A stretch of DNA of 64,000 nucleotides from a phage. The DNA lies in the sequence record PZ229304.1. One strand, given 5' to 3'. Shown here in pieces: positions 27,007-50,286 of the stretch. The notes beneath the pieces were generated by a model that had not been told where the DNA came from, searched no databases, and saw only the letters and a program-made list of their open reading frames with translations. Made by a program: the position numbers and the translations under genes. Each line of letters opens with the position of its first letter. Within the stretch, counting starts at the first letter, position 1.

Positions 27007-27723
27007 TTATTTCAGTTTGTAAACAATTACATTTAAACCTTTGTTCACTAGAGTTTCTTCGATCATAAGTTTTACAATATTCCAAGAACCTCCAGCCAAA
27101 CCACAACCAAGCATTGGTAAACCTACAATTTTACCGCCTGAAGATACAACATCGTCTCCCATACTATCTAACGCATTGTAGATAGCTTCATAATCCAGGT
27201 CACGCTTACCTTCCTCACGACGACTATAACCATATTGTCCATATAAATTATAAATTGTCAAATTGTTTTCTGTATACTTAGTAAACGTACCTAATTTTTT
27301 ATAATCACCACGTTTAGTGGCACAATCTGCTTTAAACGCACCAGGCCACTTGCTTTTAATTTTTGGTGCAATACCACTACCCATAGTGCAAAAACAGTTA
27401 CAGCAGTGTGCTATAGCGTCTATATCGCCTCTCTCGGCTGCTGCTAAAAGATCACCGTATACCTCAATGATACCTGCTGGATAACTTGTTACAATTTCAT
27501 CTTCCCAATACATTTTCTCTACACCACCGATCAGTGCAAAGTTTTGTGTAATGCGATCATCAATATAGTTAAGACCTGAAACATACACAGCATATTCATC
27601 CTGTGCTGTAATGCCTTGTACACGAATTCTTAAGACACCATCTTTATCTGTTGCTACGCGCCCAAAATCTTTTTCTGTAATATTGGTGATAGGATCTCCG
27701 AAAGTCATTACTTTATTAGACAT
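27007..27723 (-). CDS. Macro-domain-like protein (ADP-ribose binding/processing)
   Basis: Start set at MSNKV (AAGGGGA RBS, 8-nt overlap with upstream gene); DIDAIAHCCNCFCTMGSGIA resembles the macro-domain AIVNAAN...GGGGV(D)GAI region and GKIVGLPMLGCGLAGGSW the downstream FPxIStG-like region. Confidence 0.5.
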   Translation of the reverse strand: MSNKVMTFGDPITNITEKDFGRVATDKDGVLRIRVQGITAQDEYAVYVSGLNYIDDRITQNFALIGGVEKMYWEDEIVTSYPAGIIEVYGDLLAAAERGDIDAIAHCCNCFCTMGSGIAPKIKSKWPGAFKADCATKRGDYKKLGTFTKYTENNLTIYNLYGQYGYSRREEGKRDLDYEAIYNALDSMGDDVVSSGGKIVGLPMLGCGLAGGSWNIVKLMIEETLVNKGLNVIVYKLK

Positions 27724-28573
27724 AATAATCCCCTTTAACATTAGATTTGTTGATAATGTTGCTTTCAAAAAATTGACGCAGGAAATCAAAGTTCTCTTTG
27801 TATTTTTCAATATTATTGTAACCTTCTGCAAGGCAACCAAAGAACAGTTGTTCTACATAATACAAAGGAAGTTGTGAAAGTGCAATTTTAAAATCAACTT
27901 CGCTTTGACTCATTAGATACTTAATAGGACGAACCAAACATTTAGCATCAGTTTCTTGCTTAATCATTTTAATAAAAGCTGCCAGGTTATTGATATAGTT
28001 GAAGTTAAGTGCAGCTTCGGTGTTGGCTTCTGTACCTTCATACTTTGCAAAGTACAGGAAAAACGTATCGTTTTCAACACCTTCTTTGTCTAAAATTTCA
28101 ATAAGTTTTTCTTCGTGTGTTCCTGTAATATTAACATCATCAATGAAAATCAGAGTTTTATTACCCCAGAAATCACGATTGATAGAGAAAGTGTCACCAT
28201 CGATCAAAGCCTTACGATCTTCTTTGCTAAGAAATCCATAATCATTGATATAACTCACTTTACGATGAACGATATCCCACTCCACTGCTTTACCTCCTTT
28301 GATAGAGATTAGGTAGTTGAGGTGATCTACAAAATGCTCAGATAACACTGTAGCTGCATTTTTCACATAATTATATGGAGATGGAATAACAACAAAACTT
28401 TCATTTACTAGTCGTTCTTCATATTTAGAAAAGAAACTTTCAGCCAGAATGCGTCCCATTCTTTTTGCTGCCTGGTTACTGCCAAACTTTAGTTTGGAAT
28501 AATCTGCAATGTTAAATTTTGCTTCCTTCAGGTTAGTAAAAGTATTAGCAAAATGTTGAATTTGATTACGCAT
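27716..28573 (-). CDS. Phosphoribosyltransferase (type I PRTase fold) domain protein
   Basis: 285 aa; KTLIFIDDVNITGTHEE matches the PRPP-binding motif (hydrophobic-hydrophobic-DD-x-x-TG-x-T) of type I PRTases. Confidence 0.5.
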   Translation of the reverse strand: MRNQIQHFANTFTNLKEAKFNIADYSKLKFGSNQAAKRMGRILAESFFSKYEERLVNESFVVIPSPYNYVKNAATVLSEHFVDHLNYLISIKGGKAVEWDIVHRKVSYINDYGFLSKEDRKALIDGDTFSINRDFWGNKTLIFIDDVNITGTHEEKLIEILDKEGVENDTFFLYFAKYEGTEANTEAALNFNYINNLAAFIKMIKQETDAKCLVRPIKYLMSQSEVDFKIALSQLPLYYVEQLFFGCLAEGYNNIEKYKENFDFLRQFFESNIINKSNVKGDYYV

Positions 28574-29222
28574 TAATAAGTTCCTCTTTTTTAAGTTTAG
28601 CCAACAAGTCTTCTGGATTAATAATATGACAGAACTTCATCCCTATGTCAACAGCTTTTCCATCATAAATCAAACTATCTCCAACGTGTAAAATCTCCTC
28701 TGGTGCGAGATCAAACGTTACCATTTCATCAAAAGAGAGTTTAAAAAACCTAGGATCTGGTTTACACAAGCAAAACTCGTCAGAAAAATGCATAAAGTCG
28801 AATGGTAATTTTGTTAAACCAGAATATACAGCTAAGAAACTACCTGGTACAAAATTAGTATTACTCTTAATACTCAAAGAGTAGGTTGAACTTAGCTCTT
28901 CCAACTTCTTGCAAAGTTCAGGATTCAATGTTGGAGGATGTTTTATAAACATTGCTAAACAGTCTCTTTTTAACCCATCCACTTTATCAAGATCAATATT
29001 CAAATGAGTAGAAAGTGTTTCCCAAGCATTCCTAGACGTTCCACAAATTCCTTTTTCTGCTTTTAAATCCAGGAGAGTTTTTACCTCTTTATATACGGTA
29101 GCTGCTTCTGCTTCAGAACAAGAGGCATACTCGGCAATAACCTTGTTGCGTTCTTCTGCATACAAAGGATTAGCAGTAATAAGAGTATTCCATACATCAA
29201 AAGAAATATGCTTAACAGTCAT
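28566..29222 (-). CDS. HAD-superfamily hydrolase-like protein
   Basis: Start set at MTVKH (GGAGG RBS); motif-I-like FDVWNTL (nucleophile Asp, second Asp replaced by Asn) and motif-IV-like VGDSLIYDG; 8-nt overlap with PRTase gene. Confidence 0.45.
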   Translation of the reverse strand: MTVKHISFDVWNTLITANPLYAEERNKVIAEYASCSEAEAATVYKEVKTLLDLKAEKGICGTSRNAWETLSTHLNIDLDKVDGLKRDCLAMFIKHPPTLNPELCKKLEELSSTYSLSIKSNTNFVPGSFLAVYSGLTKLPFDFMHFSDEFCLCKPDPRFFKLSFDEMVTFDLAPEEILHVGDSLIYDGKAVDIGMKFCHIINPEDLLAKLKKEELINA

Positions 29223-29391
29223 TTTTAATCCTCCGTCCAAAAGAATATCATCTGCTTAATTTTATTGATCTCTTGATGTAGTAACTTTCCAGCATGTGAT
29301 TGATCTTTAATATTGACAGCAAGAATTTCAAGCTCCGTTAGTTTTTCCTGGATAGCTTTATATTCATCATCTGTAAGCATTTTCTTCCCCT

Positions 29392-29629: not shown

Positions 29630-30790
29630 TTAGTAAGAACGACCACCAAACACATACTCTGTGTAGTTTTTACGTTCTTTGTTTTTAATAACAACTTCAA
29701 TGTTGTTGCCTTTATCATCGGTGAACACAAAGTGATAACCGTCACCACCCATTGTACGGATGTGTTTTTCATCATACGTCAGCAAGATACGGTCTACACC
29801 CCAGTAGTAGTCACCTTCTTCGTCTTTATCTTCTACGGTAACTACTCCTTCCATTTCAGGAAGATGCTCTTCTCCTGACTTATGATCTACAGCTACAACA
29901 TAACGATTACCGCTAAACAAACCTTGTGCTGTCATACCGTCAATATCTGTATCTGACGAAACATCTCCTGTACGATCTACACCGTTAACTTTCAGAAGTT
30001 TAACTTCTTTTGCAGCATAGCGGTGTTCAGTGATACTGATACCCATTAATGCAAGTGCATCAGAGAATTTGTCATTAGGGTAACGGTTAAGTTCTTCTAC
30101 TAAGGACTGAACAATATCAAAGTTCAAATCCACGGAAAGATTATAAAGCGTTTCAAAATCTGGTAAAAAGGCTTTGTTCTCCAGATTTTTAGCCAGATAG
30201 TCATCCATAGTAGCTTTAGGTAGTTTCTTATAGCTAAAGCTGTAGAAAATACGGCTAGGACGATTACGCAAAAATTCTGATACATAACCATCATTTTTAG
30301 TCAATACAAACAGCTTGTCGTAGCCACCTACACCATCCAGCAGGGTAAGCAAACCATCTTGTGCATCTTTTTCAGCATACAGTTTATCAAATTCATCGAT
30401 CATAATCATCACAGGCTGTGTGATTTTAGACATAAAATTGATAAAGCCTTCACCATTAAAAGCACTACCGATAGAAATAGTAGGAATACCCATTTCACGA
30501 AGAGCAGAAGACAGCATTTTAGCTTGCAAAGTTTTACCGCTACCTTTCGTACCCTCAAGGAGAACGCCTGTGTTTTTACCTTTGCGGCTAAGGAACGTCT
30601 TGATAATACGTTCTGATTTATCATCAGTATCACCGTATGTTACTGAAGGGACTTCCATATCGTTTTTAGGATACAGGAAGAACTCGCCACTTTGAGTAAC
30701 ACCTACACCAAAAGTTCCTGCTGGAATTTCTTCAATATCTGTACCAGATTTCTGACGCAGGAAGATTTGATTGCCGAATACTGTAAACAT
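29630..30790 (-). CDS. P-loop ATPase (AAA+-like), paralog 1
   Basis: 386 aa; Walker A GTKGSGKT, Walker B IMIDEFDK, LTKN sensor-like and NRPSRIFY (SRC-box-like) motifs; paralogous to 45807..46934. Confidence 0.55.
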   Translation of the reverse strand: MFTVFGNQIFLRQKSGTDIEEIPAGTFGVGVTQSGEFFLYPKNDMEVPSVTYGDTDDKSERIIKTFLSRKGKNTGVLLEGTKGSGKTLQAKMLSSALREMGIPTISIGSAFNGEGFINFMSKITQPVMIMIDEFDKLYAEKDAQDGLLTLLDGVGGYDKLFVLTKNDGYVSEFLRNRPSRIFYSFSYKKLPKATMDDYLAKNLENKAFLPDFETLYNLSVDLNFDIVQSLVEELNRYPNDKFSDALALMGISITEHRYAAKEVKLLKVNGVDRTGDVSSDTDIDGMTAQGLFSGNRYVVAVDHKSGEEHLPEMEGVVTVEDKDEEGDYYWGVDRILLTYDEKHIRTMGGDGYHFVFTDDKGNNIEVVIKNKERKNYTEYVFGGRSY

Positions 30791-39210: not shown

Positions 39211-39651
39211 TTAAACGTTTTCTAAATCTTTTAAGGCATTACCCAACGTTAAAACAATAACATCGTTTGCTGCCTCTTCCCCATTGATATTGGTGAAATT
39301 TGGTGTGACAAAAGTAACCATATAAAACTCGTCCACCTGGAAGATAGCAATAACACCATCCATCTTAACATCTTGACGAAAGGAAAAACCAATCATCTTC
39401 TCTTGCAAAGGCATATCCCCTTCCTTCATTACCGCTAGGGAGTTTTCAGGAATGTTATATTTATCTGCTCCTATGTAGATGTACGTAATGTTATCTTTAT
39501 CGTGATGATACAGGGTTGCTTTTTCCATATCTAAACCTGACAAATCAAATACGTTAATTTCTTGTGTAGTCTTCATAAATATCCTCCCAAATCCAATAAT
39601 CATCTGTGTAAGTAGGATGCCTTTTATCCCACTCTGTTCTAGCCCAAGCAA
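39211..39651 (-). CDS. Hypothetical protein
   Basis: 146-aa ORF; true start may be internal because the 5' end overlaps the upstream gene. Confidence 0.35.
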   Translation of the reverse strand: MLGLEQSGIKGILLTQMIIGFGRIFMKTTQEINVFDLSGLDMEKATLYHHDKDNITYIYIGADKYNIPENSLAVMKEGDMPLQEKMIGFSFRQDVKMDGVIAIFQVDEFYMVTFVTPNFTNINGEEAANDVIVLTLGNALKDLENV

Positions 39652-39940
39652 CCGCTGCTACCAACACATCACCATGACAAGGTTGAGGTGAGCAGAAGCA
39701 AACTAAGTCTTTCCCTTCTAATTCTAACAAATCCTCAAGAGTGATTTTACCACAACGAATTTGTTCCCACAACCACTCTTTATATCTTTGTATAGTTGAT
39801 CCTCGTGGTTCGTCATCCTTTAACTTAAAAGGATTTGCAAACTTTGAGGCTTTTAACCCCATATGAGGCATAGCTCTGCCAATGTACACTGCACCTTCAG
39901 GTATTACTTTACCTAAGTGGTAAAAATTTAATACTTTCAT
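39554..39940 (-). CDS. DUF4326-like protein
   Basis: Start set at MKVLNF; pattern YIGR....NPF...........Y..WL.........LEGKDLVCFCSPQPCHGDVL recalls the DUF4326 family. Confidence 0.4.
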   Translation of the reverse strand: MKVLNFYHLGKVIPEGAVYIGRAMPHMGLKASKFANPFKLKDDEPRGSTIQRYKEWLWEQIRCGKITLEDLLELEGKDLVCFCSPQPCHGDVLVAAVAWARTEWDKRHPTYTDDYWIWEDIYEDYTRN

Positions 39941-45806: not shown

Positions 45807-46934
45807 ATGAAATACACGATTTATGGTGATATTGTAAGTGTAAATAAAGATATGGGCGTGGAATCTAACTATCTTCCACCTGGATTCTATACTGTTAGTC
45901 GTGATCCCCTTGGCAATTACTTTTTAAGCCGTGGTAATCTAACAGGTGTACCGGATGTTCTGTATGGTGAAACAGAAAAACGAGCAAATCACGTTATTCG
46001 TACATTCCATCGCCGGAGTGCACAAGGTAAAAATACAGGCTTGCTTCTGACAGGAACTAAGGGCAGTGGTAAAACTATGTTAGCCAAACTCATTAGTCGT
46101 GACCTTGTAGAAGAAGGTATTCCAACTATTATGGTTACTCAAGCCTACAGTGATGCTAATTTCATTGAACTTATTAGTAAGATCACCGACAAAGCAGTGA
46201 TTATTTTTGACGAATTTGATAAAGTATATGAGAAGAAACAAGATCAAGAAGCACTTCTCACTTTGTTAGATGGTACTGGCAGTGGTAATAAACTGTTTAT
46301 TCTAACTAAAAACAGTGGCTTTATCTCTGAATTCTTTCTAAATCGTCCTAGTCGTGTGTTTTATAATTTTAATTATGATAAAATCTCACTAGAAACTATG
46401 ATTGACTATTTAGATAAAAACCTGGATAACAAAGCACACTTGGATAATTTCCAAAGGCTTTGGGATGTAAGTTTAGAGTTGTCCTTTGATGTGATCCAAG
46501 GTATAGTAGAAGAACTTAATTTCTACCCTGATTTATCCTTTAAAGAATGCATCTCTATGATGGGCGTTTCTTTGGGTGGTGGTAATAAGTGGGATATCAG
46601 CAGCGTTGTTATTAATGGGAAACTTCAGAAAGTTAGCTGGGTATCTAGTTGGCATAACTTCACACCTGCAATCTTTTTAGGTGGCTCGTGCACACTAGAC
46701 GTGTACTTGTCATCTCCAAGTGATGCAGACTCTAAAGAAGCCCTTGCTAATAGCTCTTACGTGGTTTTTGATGATGAAGGAGATGCTCGAATTCCATTGA
46801 ATGCGACAAAAATGAAAGCAGATCTTATTACAGGCGGTAAAATCGTTGTGTTTAGTGATGATCCAGAAGATTCTTTCCGTATTGTTCTGGAACCAACTAT
46901 CACCAATGGTGCAACTTTGGCAAGTGTGTTTTAA
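45807..46934 (+). CDS. P-loop ATPase (AAA+-like), paralog 2
   Basis: 375 aa; collinear with 29630..30790 (GTKGSGKT, IIFDEFDK, LTKN, NRPSRVFYNF). Confidence 0.55.
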   Translation: MKYTIYGDIVSVNKDMGVESNYLPPGFYTVSRDPLGNYFLSRGNLTGVPDVLYGETEKRANHVIRTFHRRSAQGKNTGLLLTGTKGSGKTMLAKLISRDLVEEGIPTIMVTQAYSDANFIELISKITDKAVIIFDEFDKVYEKKQDQEALLTLLDGTGSGNKLFILTKNSGFISEFFLNRPSRVFYNFNYDKISLETMIDYLDKNLDNKAHLDNFQRLWDVSLELSFDVIQGIVEELNFYPDLSFKECISMMGVSLGGGNKWDISSVVINGKLQKVSWVSSWHNFTPAIFLGGSCTLDVYLSSPSDADSKEALANSSYVVFDDEGDARIPLNATKMKADLITGGKIVVFSDDPEDSFRIVLEPTITNGATLASVF

Positions 46935-47008: not shown

Positions 47009-48202
47009 ATGGCAGCACCAAAATCATGGGAACAATATAAAGAAGAGTGTCAACCTATTGCGAATAATAAAGGGATTGAGATCCTAGGATATGTTGAACC
47101 GTTTATAGGTTGTGATACGAAAATGATTCTACGCTGTAGGCAGGAACATGAATGGAAGACTTGTAGTATTAGTAATTTCAAGCACGGTAACAGTTGTCCT
47201 ATCTGTTCTGGTAAGAAGCCGTTAACATGGGAAACAGAATTGCCGATCTTGGAAGAGATAGCACAGAAGAAGGGGTATCAGGTGTTAGGGTACGTTGGAG
47301 AATGGAAAGGGAATAAAACAAAACTTGATTTGTTGTGCCATTGTGGGAATAGATGGCAAAGTACAGCAATTCATCAATTTAAAGGCGGTCGAGGTTGTCC
47401 ACAATGTAGGGGGGAGAATACAAGGAAGGCACTAACAATGTCCGACGATCAACATATTGCAGATTTCTTTTCTACAGGGAAATTTAAGGAAGGCACTATC
47501 TTCACTAACACAGGAACACGGAGTAAAGGATGCAGGCATAGTATCTGGATGGTTGAATGTCCTGTTTGCTCTCATGATGAATATGTTCAAGCAGGTGTTT
47601 GTGATGGTAAATTTTACTCTGAAGGAAATAACCTTAAACGAGGGTGCATTCCGTGTCGTTGTGGAAACTATCGGTATACAGAAGACCAGATCACCTATAG
47701 GGTAAAAAAGGAAGTAGAAGGGCAAGGGTATGTCTGGGTAGGTTGGATCGGTAAACCGTCTAGAAGTCACGGTAAGTTTAAATATCTTTGTCTTGTGCAT
47801 GGGGAACAGACAGGGAGGGCTAATAACTTATTAAGCCTCGGTCAAGGTTGTCCACAGTGTGCTGGTCATAATCAACAGCAATTATATATTAATATTGTTA
47901 AAGATAATGATATTATAGTGGCTCTTAAGTTTGGTATAGCTAAAGATAGTGATAGGCGATTAAATAGTCAAAATAGTTGTAATATGTTTTTTATGGAGCG
48001 TATTTGTTTATATGATTTTAGCACAGTGAAACAATGTAAGGCTGCTGAAAGAGCTATAAAGAAAAAATTAAAAACTGGTATTTTAACGGAAAGAGAGTTG
48101 AAAGACGGTTATACAGAAACAGTAAGTGTTTCTGATTTGGAAAATCTTCAAGAAATTATTACACAACATGGTGGCAAATTAGTATATAATAAGGAGATGT
48201 AA
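47009..48202 (+). CDS. Zinc-ribbon repeat protein with C-terminal T5orf172/GIY-YIG-like region (tentative)
   Basis: 397 aa; four repeats each ending in a CxxC pair (CPICSG, CPQCRG, CIPCRCG, CPQCAG) with a conserved GY.VLGYV / TK(M/L) / EW pattern; C-terminus QLYINIVKDNDIIVALKFGIAKDSDRRL weakly resembles T5orf172-type domains. Confidence 0.35.
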   Translation: MAAPKSWEQYKEECQPIANNKGIEILGYVEPFIGCDTKMILRCRQEHEWKTCSISNFKHGNSCPICSGKKPLTWETELPILEEIAQKKGYQVLGYVGEWKGNKTKLDLLCHCGNRWQSTAIHQFKGGRGCPQCRGENTRKALTMSDDQHIADFFSTGKFKEGTIFTNTGTRSKGCRHSIWMVECPVCSHDEYVQAGVCDGKFYSEGNNLKRGCIPCRCGNYRYTEDQITYRVKKEVEGQGYVWVGWIGKPSRSHGKFKYLCLVHGEQTGRANNLLSLGQGCPQCAGHNQQQLYINIVKDNDIIVALKFGIAKDSDRRLNSQNSCNMFFMERICLYDFSTVKQCKAAERAIKKKLKTGILTERELKDGYTETVSVSDLENLQEIITQHGGKLVYNKEM

Positions 48203-48754
48203 ATGCGGATTACTGATAAATATGTGTTCTTCTTCTCGGCAAAAGATGAATTTAGCAACTGGTATCTATCATCTTTTATTGAACCTTTAGCTCCCAAGTA
48301 TAATAATTCTATTACAAGTTCTGTTGAATTTACTTGTGTGGAACAATATATGATGTGGAGAAAAGCATGTTTGTTTTATGATTACAACATTGCATCTTCT
48401 ATTTTAACCGGAGATCTAAGATATACAGGAGAAAAAGAACAGGCATATTATAAGCGACTAGGTAGATTAGTTAAAGATTACGATGAAGCTACTTGGACTT
48501 CTTTACGGGAGAAGATTGTCAAGCGTGGTTTGTATCTTAAATACACACAAAATGAAGATCTCAAAAATAAACTTATCGCTTACGCAGATAAGGAGTTCGT
48601 AGAGGCAAGCCCTTATGATTCTATTTATGGTATCAAAATGGGAATGTGGGATCGTGATGTGGAAAATAAGGACTGTTGGAAAGGACAAAATCTTTTAGGA
48701 AAATGGCATACAGACCTTGCTGTTTATCTAAAAGCACAATCTGATATTTCCTGA
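48203..48754 (+). CDS. NADAR (YbiA/DUF1768-like) domain protein
   Basis: 183 aa; N-terminal FFFS...FSNWY.S.F......F..VEQYMMW.KA.LF.D matches the YbiA/NADAR signature as recalled. Confidence 0.55.
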   Translation: MRITDKYVFFFSAKDEFSNWYLSSFIEPLAPKYNNSITSSVEFTCVEQYMMWRKACLFYDYNIASSILTGDLRYTGEKEQAYYKRLGRLVKDYDEATWTSLREKIVKRGLYLKYTQNEDLKNKLIAYADKEFVEASPYDSIYGIKMGMWDRDVENKDCWKGQNLLGKWHTDLAVYLKAQSDIS

Positions 48755-48968
48755 TATTTTGAAAATTTTTATTTTTATAAAAAGGGGTGTGGGTTTCATG
48801 TACGGAAATCCACCCTCTGAATAATATATCCAGAGTAAATATTATTCTGTACTCTGTTAATAAAGTATTTAATTTGTTTGTTGGACTATGGTATCTGATC
48901 TTTAAAAGGCATACTATCTCTTAACTACTACTTATAACAGAACAGTAAAATCATTTTTATAAAAAGGA

Positions 48969-49170
48969 CAAAATTATTTAAAGTTTTTACAGATTTTTGG
49001 GTACAAATTTTGAAAATGAAAAGTTCAAGTTTGGTCAAAATTATTTAAAGTTTTTGTATGTATTTCTATCCAGATTTTGAAAATGAAAACTTCAATTTTT
49101 TAAAAATTCCCCAGTTTATTTAAAGTTTTTTTGCCTTTTTCCGTAGAAAAATCAAAAATGAAAAGTTCAA
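48969..49170. repeat. Three direct repeats (about 65-75 bp period) each containing TTATTTAAAGTTTTT and TTGAAAATGAAAA(G/C)TTCAA
   Basis: Units begin near 48969, 49036 and 49110; the second motif is itself a partial palindrome (TTGAA...TTCAA); region is non-coding and AT-rich. Confidence 0.6.
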
Positions 49171-49195
49171 TTTCGTGTTTTTATAGGTGTGCGTA

Positions 49196-49303
49196 TGATA
49201 ATCATTCTCATTTGTAAATGAGAATCATTATCATTTAAGTATGTAAGTGATAATCATTCTCATTAAGAGAATGAGAATCATTAGCAAATGAGAATTTTTC
49301 TCA
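49196..49303. promoter_or_regulatory. Cluster of five Fur-box-like 15-mers (TGATAATCATTCTCA and variants)
   Basis: Sites at 49196-49210, 49219-49233, 49248-49262, 49272-49286, 49289-49303; best sites match the 7-1-7 Fur consensus TGATAATnATTATCA at 14/15. Confidence 0.5.
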
Positions 49304-49567
49304 TTTAGAGAATAACGCGCAGGGGCGGTGTTTGTCTCGCGCTCCCGTGTCCCCTCGCCATACAATAAGAATAGCATAACCAACAACAAAAGCAAGCGAT
49401 TATTTTTATCTTTACATTTCTTTACAAATTTATTTTAGACGAGCTACCGGCGATCAACCTTCCAACCAGTGCCCCCTGGTATGTTAGCCCCGCCTTTACG
49501 CCGTGGGGGTGGCGCTTCCTCTTCTGTATGTAAAACAGTATAAGCCCGATCCCTGGGCTTGTCAAGA

Positions 49568-49834
49568 TTATTTTTTGTTTTCTTGCCAGGATAGGACACC
49601 TAACCAAAAATACATGTCGCCCCGCGCCCCTGGTGGGATCTTGCTTTCCCCGCCGCCACTGCAAGCCCATAGATAACCATTAGCGAACGGATCAAAGTTT
49701 TCTATTTCTTCCACCTTATGATCGCCCAGGTTGAGAACGGTTTCGACCTTTAAGCCCGTTGCGCTTGCTACCTGGTGCACCGTGCCGCCTTGCCAGCCCA
49801 ATGAGTGCATAAGGTGTAAAGTAGTATTTGTCAT
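49568..49834 (-). CDS. Hypothetical protein in GC-rich island (low confidence)
   Basis: 88-aa ORF with weak RBS; surrounding 49310-50050 is visibly more GC-rich than the rest of the window. Confidence 0.25.
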   Translation of the reverse strand: MTNTTLHLMHSLGWQGGTVHQVASATGLKVETVLNLGDHKVEEIENFDPFANGYLWACSGGGESKIPPGARGDMYFWLGVLSWQENKK

Positions 49835-49945
49835 GGTATCGCCCTTTCTTTGATGTGCGCCCTGGTTGGCGCGGTAGAAAGATAATAGCCGTTTCCTTTA
49901 TAGATAGCAAGCAAAAAAAGAAATGAAAAAAGATTAAAAAAATGG

Positions 49946-49974
49946 TTGACGTTCCTCACCTGGTAGCGTAATAT
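49946..49974 (+). promoter_or_regulatory. Sigma70-like promoter (TTGACG-17-TAATAT)
   Basis: Near-consensus hexamers with 17-nt spacer. Confidence 0.4.
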
Positions 49975-50206
49975 TCATCTTGTCGAGGGGGGCAAGGCAC
50001 AACGACAATAAACAATAGGCGGGTGCAATGCATGACGGGCAAAGGTGAGGATCTCCACAATCCACCGTCACAATAACATTACTTATAAAAGGTTGATAAC
50101 GATGATCAAGAAAGAAAATAGCTTGACGGTTGGAACGATTAACGCTATCATTCTCGCCGTTCCATTTTGGATTGTAGTGGCGGTTGTTATTTTCTAAAAA
50201 ATATTC

Positions 50207-50265
50207 TTGACAACGTTTTTTAATCTGATAAGATGTATCACATAGGGCGGCAATAGTGCCGCTCA
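50207..50265 (+). promoter_or_regulatory. Early promoter cassette: TTGACA-16-TAAGAT, conserved CACATAGGGCGG and imperfect 5' hairpin
   Basis: Exact -35; conserved post--10 motif; hairpin GGCGGCA-ATAG-TGCCGC(T)C; upstream of gene 50287. Confidence 0.5.
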
Positions 50266-50286
50266 TAACAGAAGAGAGAAATAATC

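What the first reader, a model, noticed from the sequence alone, without database searches (positions are those of the whole stretch)
48203..48754. NADAR-domain protein: candidate reverser of nucleic-acid ADP-ribosylation
The 183-aa protein carries the YbiA/NADAR N-terminal signature (FFFS..FSNWY.S.F...F..VEQYMMW.KA.LF). NADAR enzymes have been reported to remove ADP-ribose from guanine modified by DarT-type toxins. Together with the macro-domain protein at 27007-27723 and the DUF4326-like protein at 39554-39940, the phage appears to carry several ADP-ribose-processing functions, consistent with an anti-defence toolkit.
Basis: partly seen in the sequence, partly recalled or inferred. Interest (0 to 1): 0.6.

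Follow-up and report, generated by a model that had tools for sequence, protein, structure and literature searches.

The report
Known phage anti-DarTG1 NADAR enzyme (AdfN)
This gene encodes a small enzyme that phages use to strip a toxic ADP-ribose tag from guanine in their DNA and so escape the bacterial DarTG1 defence; a 98%-identical copy from a sister phage (Bas60) was already tested and published in 2025, so the finding is correct but not new.

Summary
The ORF at 48203-48754 (+), 183 aa, is real and is a full-length NADAR domain protein. It scores 126 bits on Pfam PF08719 (cutoff 35.1). An AlphaFold2 model (pLDDT 96.9) matches the Phytophthora NADAR·ADP-ribose structure 8BAU (TM 0.78). 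All ADP-ribose-binding and catalytic residues are present: E47, K54, K84, R88, E134, D139.

The window is a phi92-like E. coli myovirus (Justusliebigvirus). Its NADAR is 180/183 identical to gene bas60_0111 of BASEL phage Bas60, and 182/183 identical to the Bas61 and Bas62 copies. Johannesman et al. (Nat Commun 2025) named this protein AdfN^Bas60. They showed that it neutralises the DarT1 toxin in E. coli and restores plaquing of three DarTG1-sensitive phages. It has no effect on DarTG2.

The two companion genes are also real, on the minus strand: a TARG1/SCO6735/DarG-class macrodomain and a DUF4326 protein. Their anti-defence roles are only predicted.

Still open are native necessity in this phage, direct biochemistry for this clade, and possible wider substrates (cytidine-ADPr, RNA).

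The parts
48203..48754 (+). NADAR-domain protein, 183 aa. It is the orthologue of AdfN^Bas60 (anti-DarT factor NADAR), a guanine-ADP-ribose DNA glycohydrolase.
   Evidence: ORF. Pfam PF08719 126 bits. 180/183 identical to bas60_0111 and 182/183 to bas62_0106. AF2 pLDDT 96.9. Foldseek 8BAU TM 0.78, E=8e-10. E47, K54, K84, R88, E134 and D139 are conserved.
48191..48196 (+). Shine-Dalgarno sequence AAGGAG, 6 nt upstream of the ATG, inside the 3' end of the upstream gene. The arrangement suggests translational coupling.
   Evidence: Sequence read directly. An RBS AGGAG is annotated at the same place in phi92.
48783..48818 (+). Stable GC-rich hairpin 29 nt after the stop codon. It may mark the end of the transcription unit, but it is not followed by a T-run.
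   Evidence: RNA fold of 48755-48850: MFE -26.8 kcal/mol, z = -3.64 against shuffles. The consensus terminator scan did not call it.
47009..48202 (+). Upstream gene (397 aa) with four CapR zinc-ribbon repeats and a T5orf172 domain, annotated 'endonuclease' in relatives. It is context only; no functional link to the NADAR is shown.
   Evidence: Pfam CapR 131.7 bits in 4 stretches, T5orf172 22.1 bits. phrog_681 endonuclease. The product length varies between relatives: 467 aa in Bas60, 390 aa in Bas62, 332 aa in tuntematon (from CDS coordinates).
45807..46934 (+). AAA ATPase (375 aa) heading the same-strand gene run. It has a 39%-identical paralogue at 29630-30790(-). Context only.
   Evidence: Pfam AAA 38.9 bits. 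Paralogy E=2e-82.
27007..27723 (-). It is a candidate ADP-ribose hydrolase and is untested.
   Evidence: Pfam Macro 31.2 bits. PDB 5E3B E=5.8e-15, TARG1 4J5Q E=4.5e-10, DarG 5M31 E=1.5e-3. PADLOC DarG 49 bits.
39554..39940 (-). It is predicted, not shown, to process phosphates on ADP-ribose derivatives.
   Evidence: Pfam PF14216 77.3 bits. Prediction from Iyer et al. 2022, PMC9503650. No solved relative.

Best explanation
The gene encodes a stand-alone NADAR glycohydrolase, the orthologue of AdfN^Bas60. When a host carrying the DarTG1 toxin-antitoxin defence is infected, the toxin DarT1 attaches ADP-ribose to the N2 of guanine in phage DNA and blocks replication. The phage enzyme cleaves that N-glycosidic bond and restores normal guanine, so replication continues. 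It behaves as an orphan enzymatic antitoxin. It works on the lesion rather than on the toxin, and it does not touch thymine-ADP-ribose made by DarT2. Shown here: family membership, fold, active-site residues and near-identity to the tested protein. Shown in the literature for the 98%-identical protein: DarT1 neutralisation, phage rescue and no effect on DarTG2. Inferred: the same activity for this allele, and the chemical step itself, which was demonstrated in vitro for T4 AdfN and other NADARs but not for this clade.
For: NADAR profile at 126 bits. Best solved relative by sequence and by fold is the P. nicotianae NADAR·ADPr complex 8BAU. Residues equivalent to Pn E43, K50, K75, R79, E125 and D130 are E47, K54, K84, R88, E134 and D139; all are invariant or nearly invariant across 88 homologues. 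E47 and K54 align with T4 AdfN E36 and K43, whose mutation abolished counter-defence. The protein is 180/183 identical to bas60_0111, in the same gene order and the same genus. The three differences (N62S, A96D, A178T) fall outside the conserved columns. Published experiments on AdfN^Bas60 are in PMC11825919. Bas60, Bas61 and Bas62 are phi92-like phages, as this window is.
Against: The text I could read does not give the accession of the cloned AdfN^Bas60, and its Table S3 is not held. I therefore equate it with bas60_0111, the only NADAR annotated in the 5.5-kb Bas60 locus read; nearly every record in the phage-wide tblastn gave a single match (727 places in 725 records). The published tests used ectopic expression. 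I found no deletion of the gene in a phi92-like phage and no in vitro assay for this clade. NCBIfam's best model is the riboflavin-intermediate N-glycosidase domain TIGR02464, at 109.8 bits against a cutoff of 73.7.
Confidence: 0.88

Rival explanations
1. DarT1 reversal is only one activity, or a side activity. The enzyme's main in vivo substrates would be other ADP-ribose conjugates: cytidine-ADPr, guanine-ADPr on RNA, or low-molecular-weight ADP-ribose signals or toxins made by other defence systems.
For: By sequence and fold the protein groups with the generic NADAR family (8BAU 131.5 bits against YbiA 70.5 bits; DarG1 structures are not hit). It keeps the Glu at the E125 position (E134), as generic and YbiA-type NADARs do. 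Generic and YbiA-type NADARs, unlike T4 AdfN and DarG1, also remove cytidine-ADPr from DNA and RNA in vitro (PMC12945103). Iyer et al. 2022 argued that phage NADARs mainly target soluble ADPr derivatives. Homologues at about 40% identity sit next to NMNAT-like or NAMPT genes in jumbo-phage-like contigs.
Against: The only experimental data for this protein clade show strong DarT1/DarTG1 neutralisation. No test of other substrates exists for it.
Confidence: 0.1
2. It is a YbiA-type housekeeping N-glycosidase that hydrolyses riboflavin-pathway intermediates. This matches the annotations 'putative YbiA-like N-glycosidase' and 'GTP cyclohydrolase II' in several relatives.
For: TIGR02464 scores above its cutoff. 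Depositors use these names.
Against: Identity to E. coli YbiA is only 27% over 82 aa. The profile and the fold both rank YbiA well below PnNADAR. Johannesman et al. place AdfN^Bas60 among non-YbiA-like NADARs. No riboflavin genes are annotated in the equivalent ~62 kb of Bas62. Even E. coli YbiA hydrolyses G-ADPr in vitro, so a hit to that model does not discriminate.
Confidence: 0.02
3. It acts without catalysis, by binding and blocking a host defence complex. This was reported for another phage NADAR against Retron-Eco1.
For: Johannesman et al. cite such a case (Carabias et al. 2024).
Against: All catalytic residues are conserved and under purifying selection. In T4 AdfN the equivalent residues are required. 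I did not read the Carabias paper.
Confidence: 0.02

Closest known systems
AdfN^Bas60, the NADAR of BASEL phages Bas60/61/62 (Johannesman et al., Nat Commun 2025, PMC11825919)
   Same: Same gene: 98-99% protein identity, same length, same genus (Justusliebigvirus). The flanking genes are the same: AAA ATPase, CapR/T5orf172 gene, NADAR, then the same small downstream genes.
   Different: Three conservative-looking substitutions against Bas60 (N62S, A96D, A178T), none at conserved positions. The upstream CapR-repeat gene is 70 codons shorter than in Bas60.
AdfN^T4 (T4 gp30.3), the phage-type NADAR
   Same: NADAR core with the E...K catalytic pair (T4 E36/K43 align with E47/K54). Same biological role as an orphan enzymatic counter to DarTG1.
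   Different: The sequences are barely alignable (hhalign probability 15%). T4-type NADARs carry His where this protein has Glu134. AdfN^T4 works only in T-even infection and cannot neutralise DarT1 alone, whereas AdfN^Bas60 can.
P. nicotianae NADAR (PDB 8BAU), the generic NADAR family
   Same: Best solved match by sequence (E=2.5e-12; profile 131.5 bits) and by fold (TM 0.78). All ADPr-contacting residues are conserved except W133, which is Y142 here.
   Different: 28% identity. It is a eukaryotic protein of unknown physiological role.
DarG1, the DarT1-associated NADAR antitoxin
   Same: Same reaction and same toxin counteracted.
   Different: There is no N-terminal extension, no adjacent darT1, and Glu rather than Asp at the third catalytic position. 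DarG1 structures are not retrieved by the profile.
E. coli YbiA (PDB 2B3W), riboflavin-intermediate N-glycosidase
   Same: Same superfamily and fold (TM 0.67). Glu at the E125-equivalent position. Passes TIGR02464.
   Different: 27% identity over less than half the protein. YbiA did not protect against DarT1 in cells, whereas AdfN^Bas60 does.

Membership tests
NADAR superfamily (PF08719 / DUF1768) | Profile HMM match above the curated cutoff over most of the domain | tested here: met
   126 bits against a cutoff of 35.1; profile positions 9-154 of 163
NADAR superfamily (PF08719 / DUF1768) | NADAR fold: alpha-helical core with small flanking beta-hairpins | tested here: met
   AF2 model pLDDT 96.9. 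Foldseek finds only NADAR structures: 8BAU TM 0.78 and 2B3W TM 0.67. The next hit has E>2.
NADAR superfamily (PF08719 / DUF1768) | Catalytic Glu and Lys 7 residues apart (Pn E43/K50; E. coli C7 E88/K95; T4 E36/K43) | tested here: met
   E47 and K54 in VEQYMMWRKA are invariant in 88 homologues. They align with 8BAU and with T4. The residue list comes from PMC11543638.
NADAR superfamily (PF08719 / DUF1768) | Pyrophosphate-binding Lys/Arg (Pn K75/R79) and distal-ribose acidic residues (Pn E125, D130) | tested here: met
   K84, R88, E134 and D139
AdfN (anti-DarT factor NADAR), Bas60 type | Orthology with the tested protein: near-identical sequence at the syntenic position in the same phage genus | tested here: met
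   180/183 identical to bas60_0111, with the same neighbours
AdfN (anti-DarT factor NADAR), Bas60 type | Neutralises DarT1 toxicity and restores phage plaquing on DarTG1 hosts, but not on DarTG2 | not testable with these tools
   Reported for AdfN^Bas60 by ectopic expression (PMC11825919). Not measured for this allele.
AdfN (anti-DarT factor NADAR), Bas60 type | Hydrolyses guanine-N2-ADP-ribose on DNA in vitro | not testable with these tools
   Shown for T4 AdfN, DarG1, generic NADARs and YbiA. I found no in vitro data for the Bas60 clade.
DarG1 antitoxin of the DarTG1 system | Encoded next to a darT1 toxin gene | tested here: not met
   The upstream gene is a CapR/T5orf172 protein and the downstream stretch holds only small, unannotated ORFs. 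None of the seven window proteins scanned (the NADAR, its two upstream neighbours, the macro/PRTase pair, DUF4326 and the second AAA ATPase) hits a PADLOC DarT model.
DarG1 antitoxin of the DarTG1 system | N-terminal YbiA-fold extension (proteins of about 229-234 aa) and catalytic Asp in place of Glu125 | tested here: not met
   The protein is 183 aa, the domain starts at about residue 8, and the position holds Glu134.
YbiA-type riboflavin-intermediate N-glycosidase | Match to TIGR02464 above cutoff | tested here: met
   109.8 bits against 73.7. The model is a domain model that other NADAR families can also satisfy.
YbiA-type riboflavin-intermediate N-glycosidase | Closer to YbiA than to other NADAR families, and a riboflavin-pathway context | tested here: not met
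   YbiA 70.5 bits against PnNADAR 131.5 bits with the family profile. 27% identity over 82 aa. No rib genes are annotated in the equivalent Bas62 region.

The most novel reading that the evidence does not exclude
This generic-type phage NADAR may not be a DarT1-only tool. Like other generic NADARs it might also remove ADP-ribose from cytidine and from RNA. Together with the TARG1/SCO6735/DarG-class macrodomain, its PRTase and HAD neighbours, and the DUF4326 protein, it might form a multi-enzyme set that reverses several kinds of nucleic-acid ADP-ribosylation, with the macrodomain as a possible AdfM-like counter to DarTG2. The two paralogous AAA ATPases, one upstream of each module, could be functionally linked to them.
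Probability: 0.2. Interest if true: 0.45.

Novelty: already known. Interest (0 to 1): 0.13.

Why it matters
It confirms that sequence-only reading correctly picked out a genuine anti-defence gene. It also allows a firm functional annotation (AdfN, anti-DarTG1 guanine-ADP-ribose glycohydrolase) for a gene that most database records for the phi92-like phages holding it (56 records found) still label 'hypothetical', 'GTP cyclohydrolase II', 'DNA methyltransferase' or 'YbiA-like N-glycosidase'. It opens no new question on its own. The residual value lies in three untested points: whether the gene is needed in its native phage, its substrate breadth, and the neighbouring macrodomain as a candidate anti-DarTG2 factor.

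Tried and rejected
- **RNA genes:** a tRNA scan and an Rfam scan of the whole window both found nothing. The gene-poor 1.5 kb downstream of the NADAR therefore holds no known RNA family.
- **Promoters and terminators:** the consensus scan around the gene found promoter-like sites only modestly above shuffled expectation (29 against 21.7 ± 4.0), and none is placed so as to define a unit for the NADAR. No canonical terminator lies at the gene's end.
- **Accession of the cloned protein:** I looked for it in the paper's supplements, but none are held.
- **DarG1-type antitoxin:** rejected, because there is no darT1 neighbour, no N-terminal extension, and Glu rather than Asp at the third catalytic position.
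- **NCBIfam 'DS32_2 NADAR family anti-phage protein':** rejected, at 25.9 bits against a cutoff of 240.
- **PADLOC PDC-M42C hit (117 bits):** it only shows that a NADAR occurs in a candidate defence system. It is not evidence that this phage gene is a defence gene.
- **Nearest cellular relatives:** I looked up two homologues of about 40% identity on large contigs. Both contigs look like jumbo phages rather than bacteria, so this gave no information on a bacterial source.

Full report
**Observation**

An AAGGAG Shine-Dalgarno sequence lies 6 nt upstream. The TAA stop of the preceding gene directly abuts the ATG. A stable hairpin follows the stop codon at 48783-48818; the folded region has z = -3.64.

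**Family membership**

- PHROGs places the protein in phrog_1017, of unknown function.
- NCBIfam's best model is TIGR02464, the riboflavin-intermediate N-glycosidase domain, at 109.8 bits against 73.7.
- This is the only NADAR-like ORF in the window.

**Which genome this is**

The 4 kb around the gene is 98.4% identical to Escherichia phage vB_vPM_PD06 and 94-98% identical to many phi92-like phages (Stephanstirmvirinae, Justusliebigvirus). These include the BASEL phage JohannJBalmer, which is Bas62. The gene itself occurs in 56 phage records at 96.2-99.8% nucleotide identity.

**The decisive link**

Johannesman et al. searched the BASEL collection for NADARs (preprint PMC11257639; Nat Commun 2025, PMC11825919). 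[quoted passage not shown] Their results for that protein were:

- It neutralised DarT1 toxicity in uninfected E. coli.
- Expressed ectopically, it restored RB69, T5 and Bas25 to full titre on DarTG1 hosts.
- It did not help T5 on a DarTG2 host.

Maffei et al. 2021 identify Bas60-Bas62 as the phi92-like group. I fetched the three genes and aligned them with the window protein.

| Phage | Gene | Identity to the window protein |
|---|---|---|
| Bas60 (PaulScherrer) | bas60_0111 | 180/183 (N62S, A96D, A178T) |
| Bas61 (EmilieFrey) | bas61_0107 | 182/183 (A96D) |
| Bas62 (JohannJBalmer) | bas62_0106 | 182/183 (A96T) |

Phage outra encodes a 100%-identical protein. Gene order around the gene is the same in Bas60. 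Codon differences from the orthologues are overwhelmingly synonymous.

**Active site and fold**

Schuller et al. 2023 (PMC11543638) define the ADP-ribose contacts in the P. nicotianae NADAR: E43, K75, R79, E125, D130 and W133. They name E88, K95 and D171 as the catalytic residues of E. coli C7 NADAR, with E88 equivalent to Pn E43. Pn K50 is my own inference: it is the Lys seven residues after E43, matching the C7 E88/K95 spacing. I allowed for a 2-residue offset in the PDB chain when mapping the HMMER alignment to 8BAU. The equivalents here are as follows.

| P. nicotianae NADAR | This protein |
|---|---|
| E43 | E47 |
| K50 | K54 |
| K75 | K84 |
| R79 | R88 |
| E125 | E134 |
| D130 | D139 |
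| W133 | Y142 |

- In an alignment of 88 homologues, E47, K54, E134 and D139 are invariant, and K84 and R88 are at least 90% conserved.
- None of the three substitutions against Bas60 touches a conserved column.
- Profile alignment to T4 gp30.3 puts E47 and K54 opposite E36 and K43. These are the residues whose alanine mutants lost counter-defence in T4.
- An AlphaFold2 model built on the 88-sequence alignment has mean pLDDT 96.9.
- Foldseek against the PDB returns only two significant hits: the Pn NADAR·ADP-ribose complex 8BAU (TM 0.78, E=8e-10) and E. coli YbiA 2B3W (TM 0.67).

**Which NADAR family**

- The family profile scores 8BAU at 131.5 bits and YbiA at 70.5 bits. It does not retrieve the DarG1 structures.
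- Pairwise identity to E. coli YbiA is 27% over 82 residues.
- Glu at position 134 is the generic/YbiA state. DarG1 has Asp at this position and T4-type phage NADARs have His.
- The protein lacks the DarG1 N-terminal extension, and no darT gene is nearby.

**Mechanism**

Three steps are established in the literature:

1. DarT1 ADP-ribosylates guanine N2 in DNA.
2. NADARs of all four families hydrolyse G-ADPr in vitro.
3. AdfN^Bas60 cancels DarT1 and DarTG1 in cells.

Two steps are inferred. One is that this allele, with three substitutions, does the same. The other is that it acts by hydrolysis of G-ADPr on phage DNA during native infection. In the texts I read I found no gene deletion in a phi92-like phage and no in vitro assay for this clade.

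**Rivals**

- **Riboflavin-intermediate N-glycosidase (YbiA-like).** This is the basis of several database names. It is weakly supported by the TIGR02464 hit. Against it stand the low similarity to YbiA, the absence of rib genes in the annotated Bas62 equivalent and the experimental data.
- **Broader substrate range.** This is the most serious open alternative. Generic and YbiA-type NADARs, unlike T4 AdfN and DarG1, also remove cytidine-ADPr from DNA and RNA (PMC12945103). Iyer et al. 2022 argued that phage NADARs mostly target soluble ADPr derivatives.
- **Non-catalytic inhibitor.** Johannesman et al. cite such a mode for a phage NADAR acting on Retron-Eco1. It is unlikely here given the conserved active site.

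**The 'toolkit' claim**

Both companion genes are real but lie on the minus strand.

- **Macrodomain, 27007-27723(-).** It passes Pfam Macro (31.2 bits against 22). It is most similar to SCO6735 (5E3B, E=5.8e-15), BT1257 and TARG1 (E=4.5e-10), and more weakly to DarG macrodomains. DarG2, TARG1 and SCO6735 are all listed as reversing thymine-ADPr. A macrodomain anti-DarTG2 factor, AdfM, was reported in 2026, but only in chimalliviruses (PMC13309987). The window macrodomain is therefore a reasonable but untested candidate.
- **Its neighbours.** The macrodomain gene sits in a run HAD hydrolase, ComF-like PRTase (143.5 bits), macro.
- **DUF4326, 39554-39940(-).** It passes PF14216 at 77.3 bits. 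Only a prediction exists: a rhodanese-phosphatase clade acting on ribose phosphates of ADPr.

**Verdict**

The function is already in the literature for a 98-99% identical orthologue from the same phage genus. The finding is ordinary in the sense of being already explained, and I score it low for interest.

Noticed in passing
window 45807-46934 (+) and 29630-30790 (-): Two paralogous AAA ATPases (39% identity, E=2e-82). Each lies upstream, on the same strand, of an ADP-ribose-related gene. One precedes the CapR/T5orf172 gene and the NADAR. The other precedes two small ORFs, then HAD, PRTase and Macro. This may be coincidence or a repeated module.
   Followed up: partly
window 27007-29240 (-): A three-gene run with overlapping ends: HAD-like hydrolase (28566-29222), ComF-like phosphoribosyltransferase PF15610 (27716-28573) and a TARG1/SCO6735/DarG-class macrodomain (27007-27723). 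The macrodomain is a candidate thymine-ADPr (DarT2) reverser by analogy with AdfM, TARG1 and SCO6735. It is untested.
   Followed up: partly
window 47009-48202 (+): The gene abutting the NADAR encodes four CapR zinc-ribbon repeats plus a T5orf172 domain, and relatives annotate it 'endonuclease'. From the annotated CDS coordinates its product is 467 aa in Bas60, 390 aa in Bas62 and 332 aa in Phapecoctavirus tuntematon. That points to repeat-number variation or a mobile-element-like gene.
   Followed up: partly
window 48755-50286: About 1.5 kb downstream of the NADAR is gene-poor. Relatives annotate only small minus-strand ORFs there, at positions equivalent to window ~48928-49038 (111 nt) and 49568-49834 (267 nt). 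The stretch around 49400-49900 looked G+C-richer than its surroundings by eye, but I ran no composition profile. Relatives muut, inny and tuntematon carry 'repeat_region' features hereabouts. There are no Rfam or tRNA hits, and the 88-aa ORF has no Pfam match.
   Followed up: partly
public records matched by window 48203-48754: The same gene is inconsistently annotated across records: 'hypothetical protein', 'putative YbiA-like N-glycosidase', 'GTP cyclohydrolase II', 'DNA methyltransferase' (phage Eryne) and 'NADAR family protein'. Four 146-kb records labelled 'Campylobacter phage' (MG065639, MG065645, MG065656, MG065689) carry the gene at 97.3% identity. They look like phi92-like coliphages with a doubtful host label.
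   Followed up: no
L009:5026-6477; the 354-kb contig of P0050 and its partial copy L011: Metagenomic homologues at about 40% identity sit in contigs of 350-455 kb that look like jumbo phages (Apyc1-like anti-Pycsar gene, GIY-YIG genes, ClpP, sigma factor). There they lie directly beside an NMNAT-like nucleotidyltransferase, or near NAMPT, PRTase and nucleoside deoxyribosyltransferase genes. This hints at a link between this NADAR clade and phage NAD+ salvage.
   Followed up: partly
phage collection, tblastn of the window NADAR: Relatives at 33-44% identity occur in 725 phage records. They are dominated by large myoviruses of Staphylococcus, Listeria, Bacillus and Enterococcus (Herelleviridae-like), plus Klebsiella, Cronobacter and Salmonella phages, cyanophage B23 and Lak megaphage. 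Phapecoctavirus copies are only 56-59% identical, although they belong to the same subfamily.
   Followed up: no
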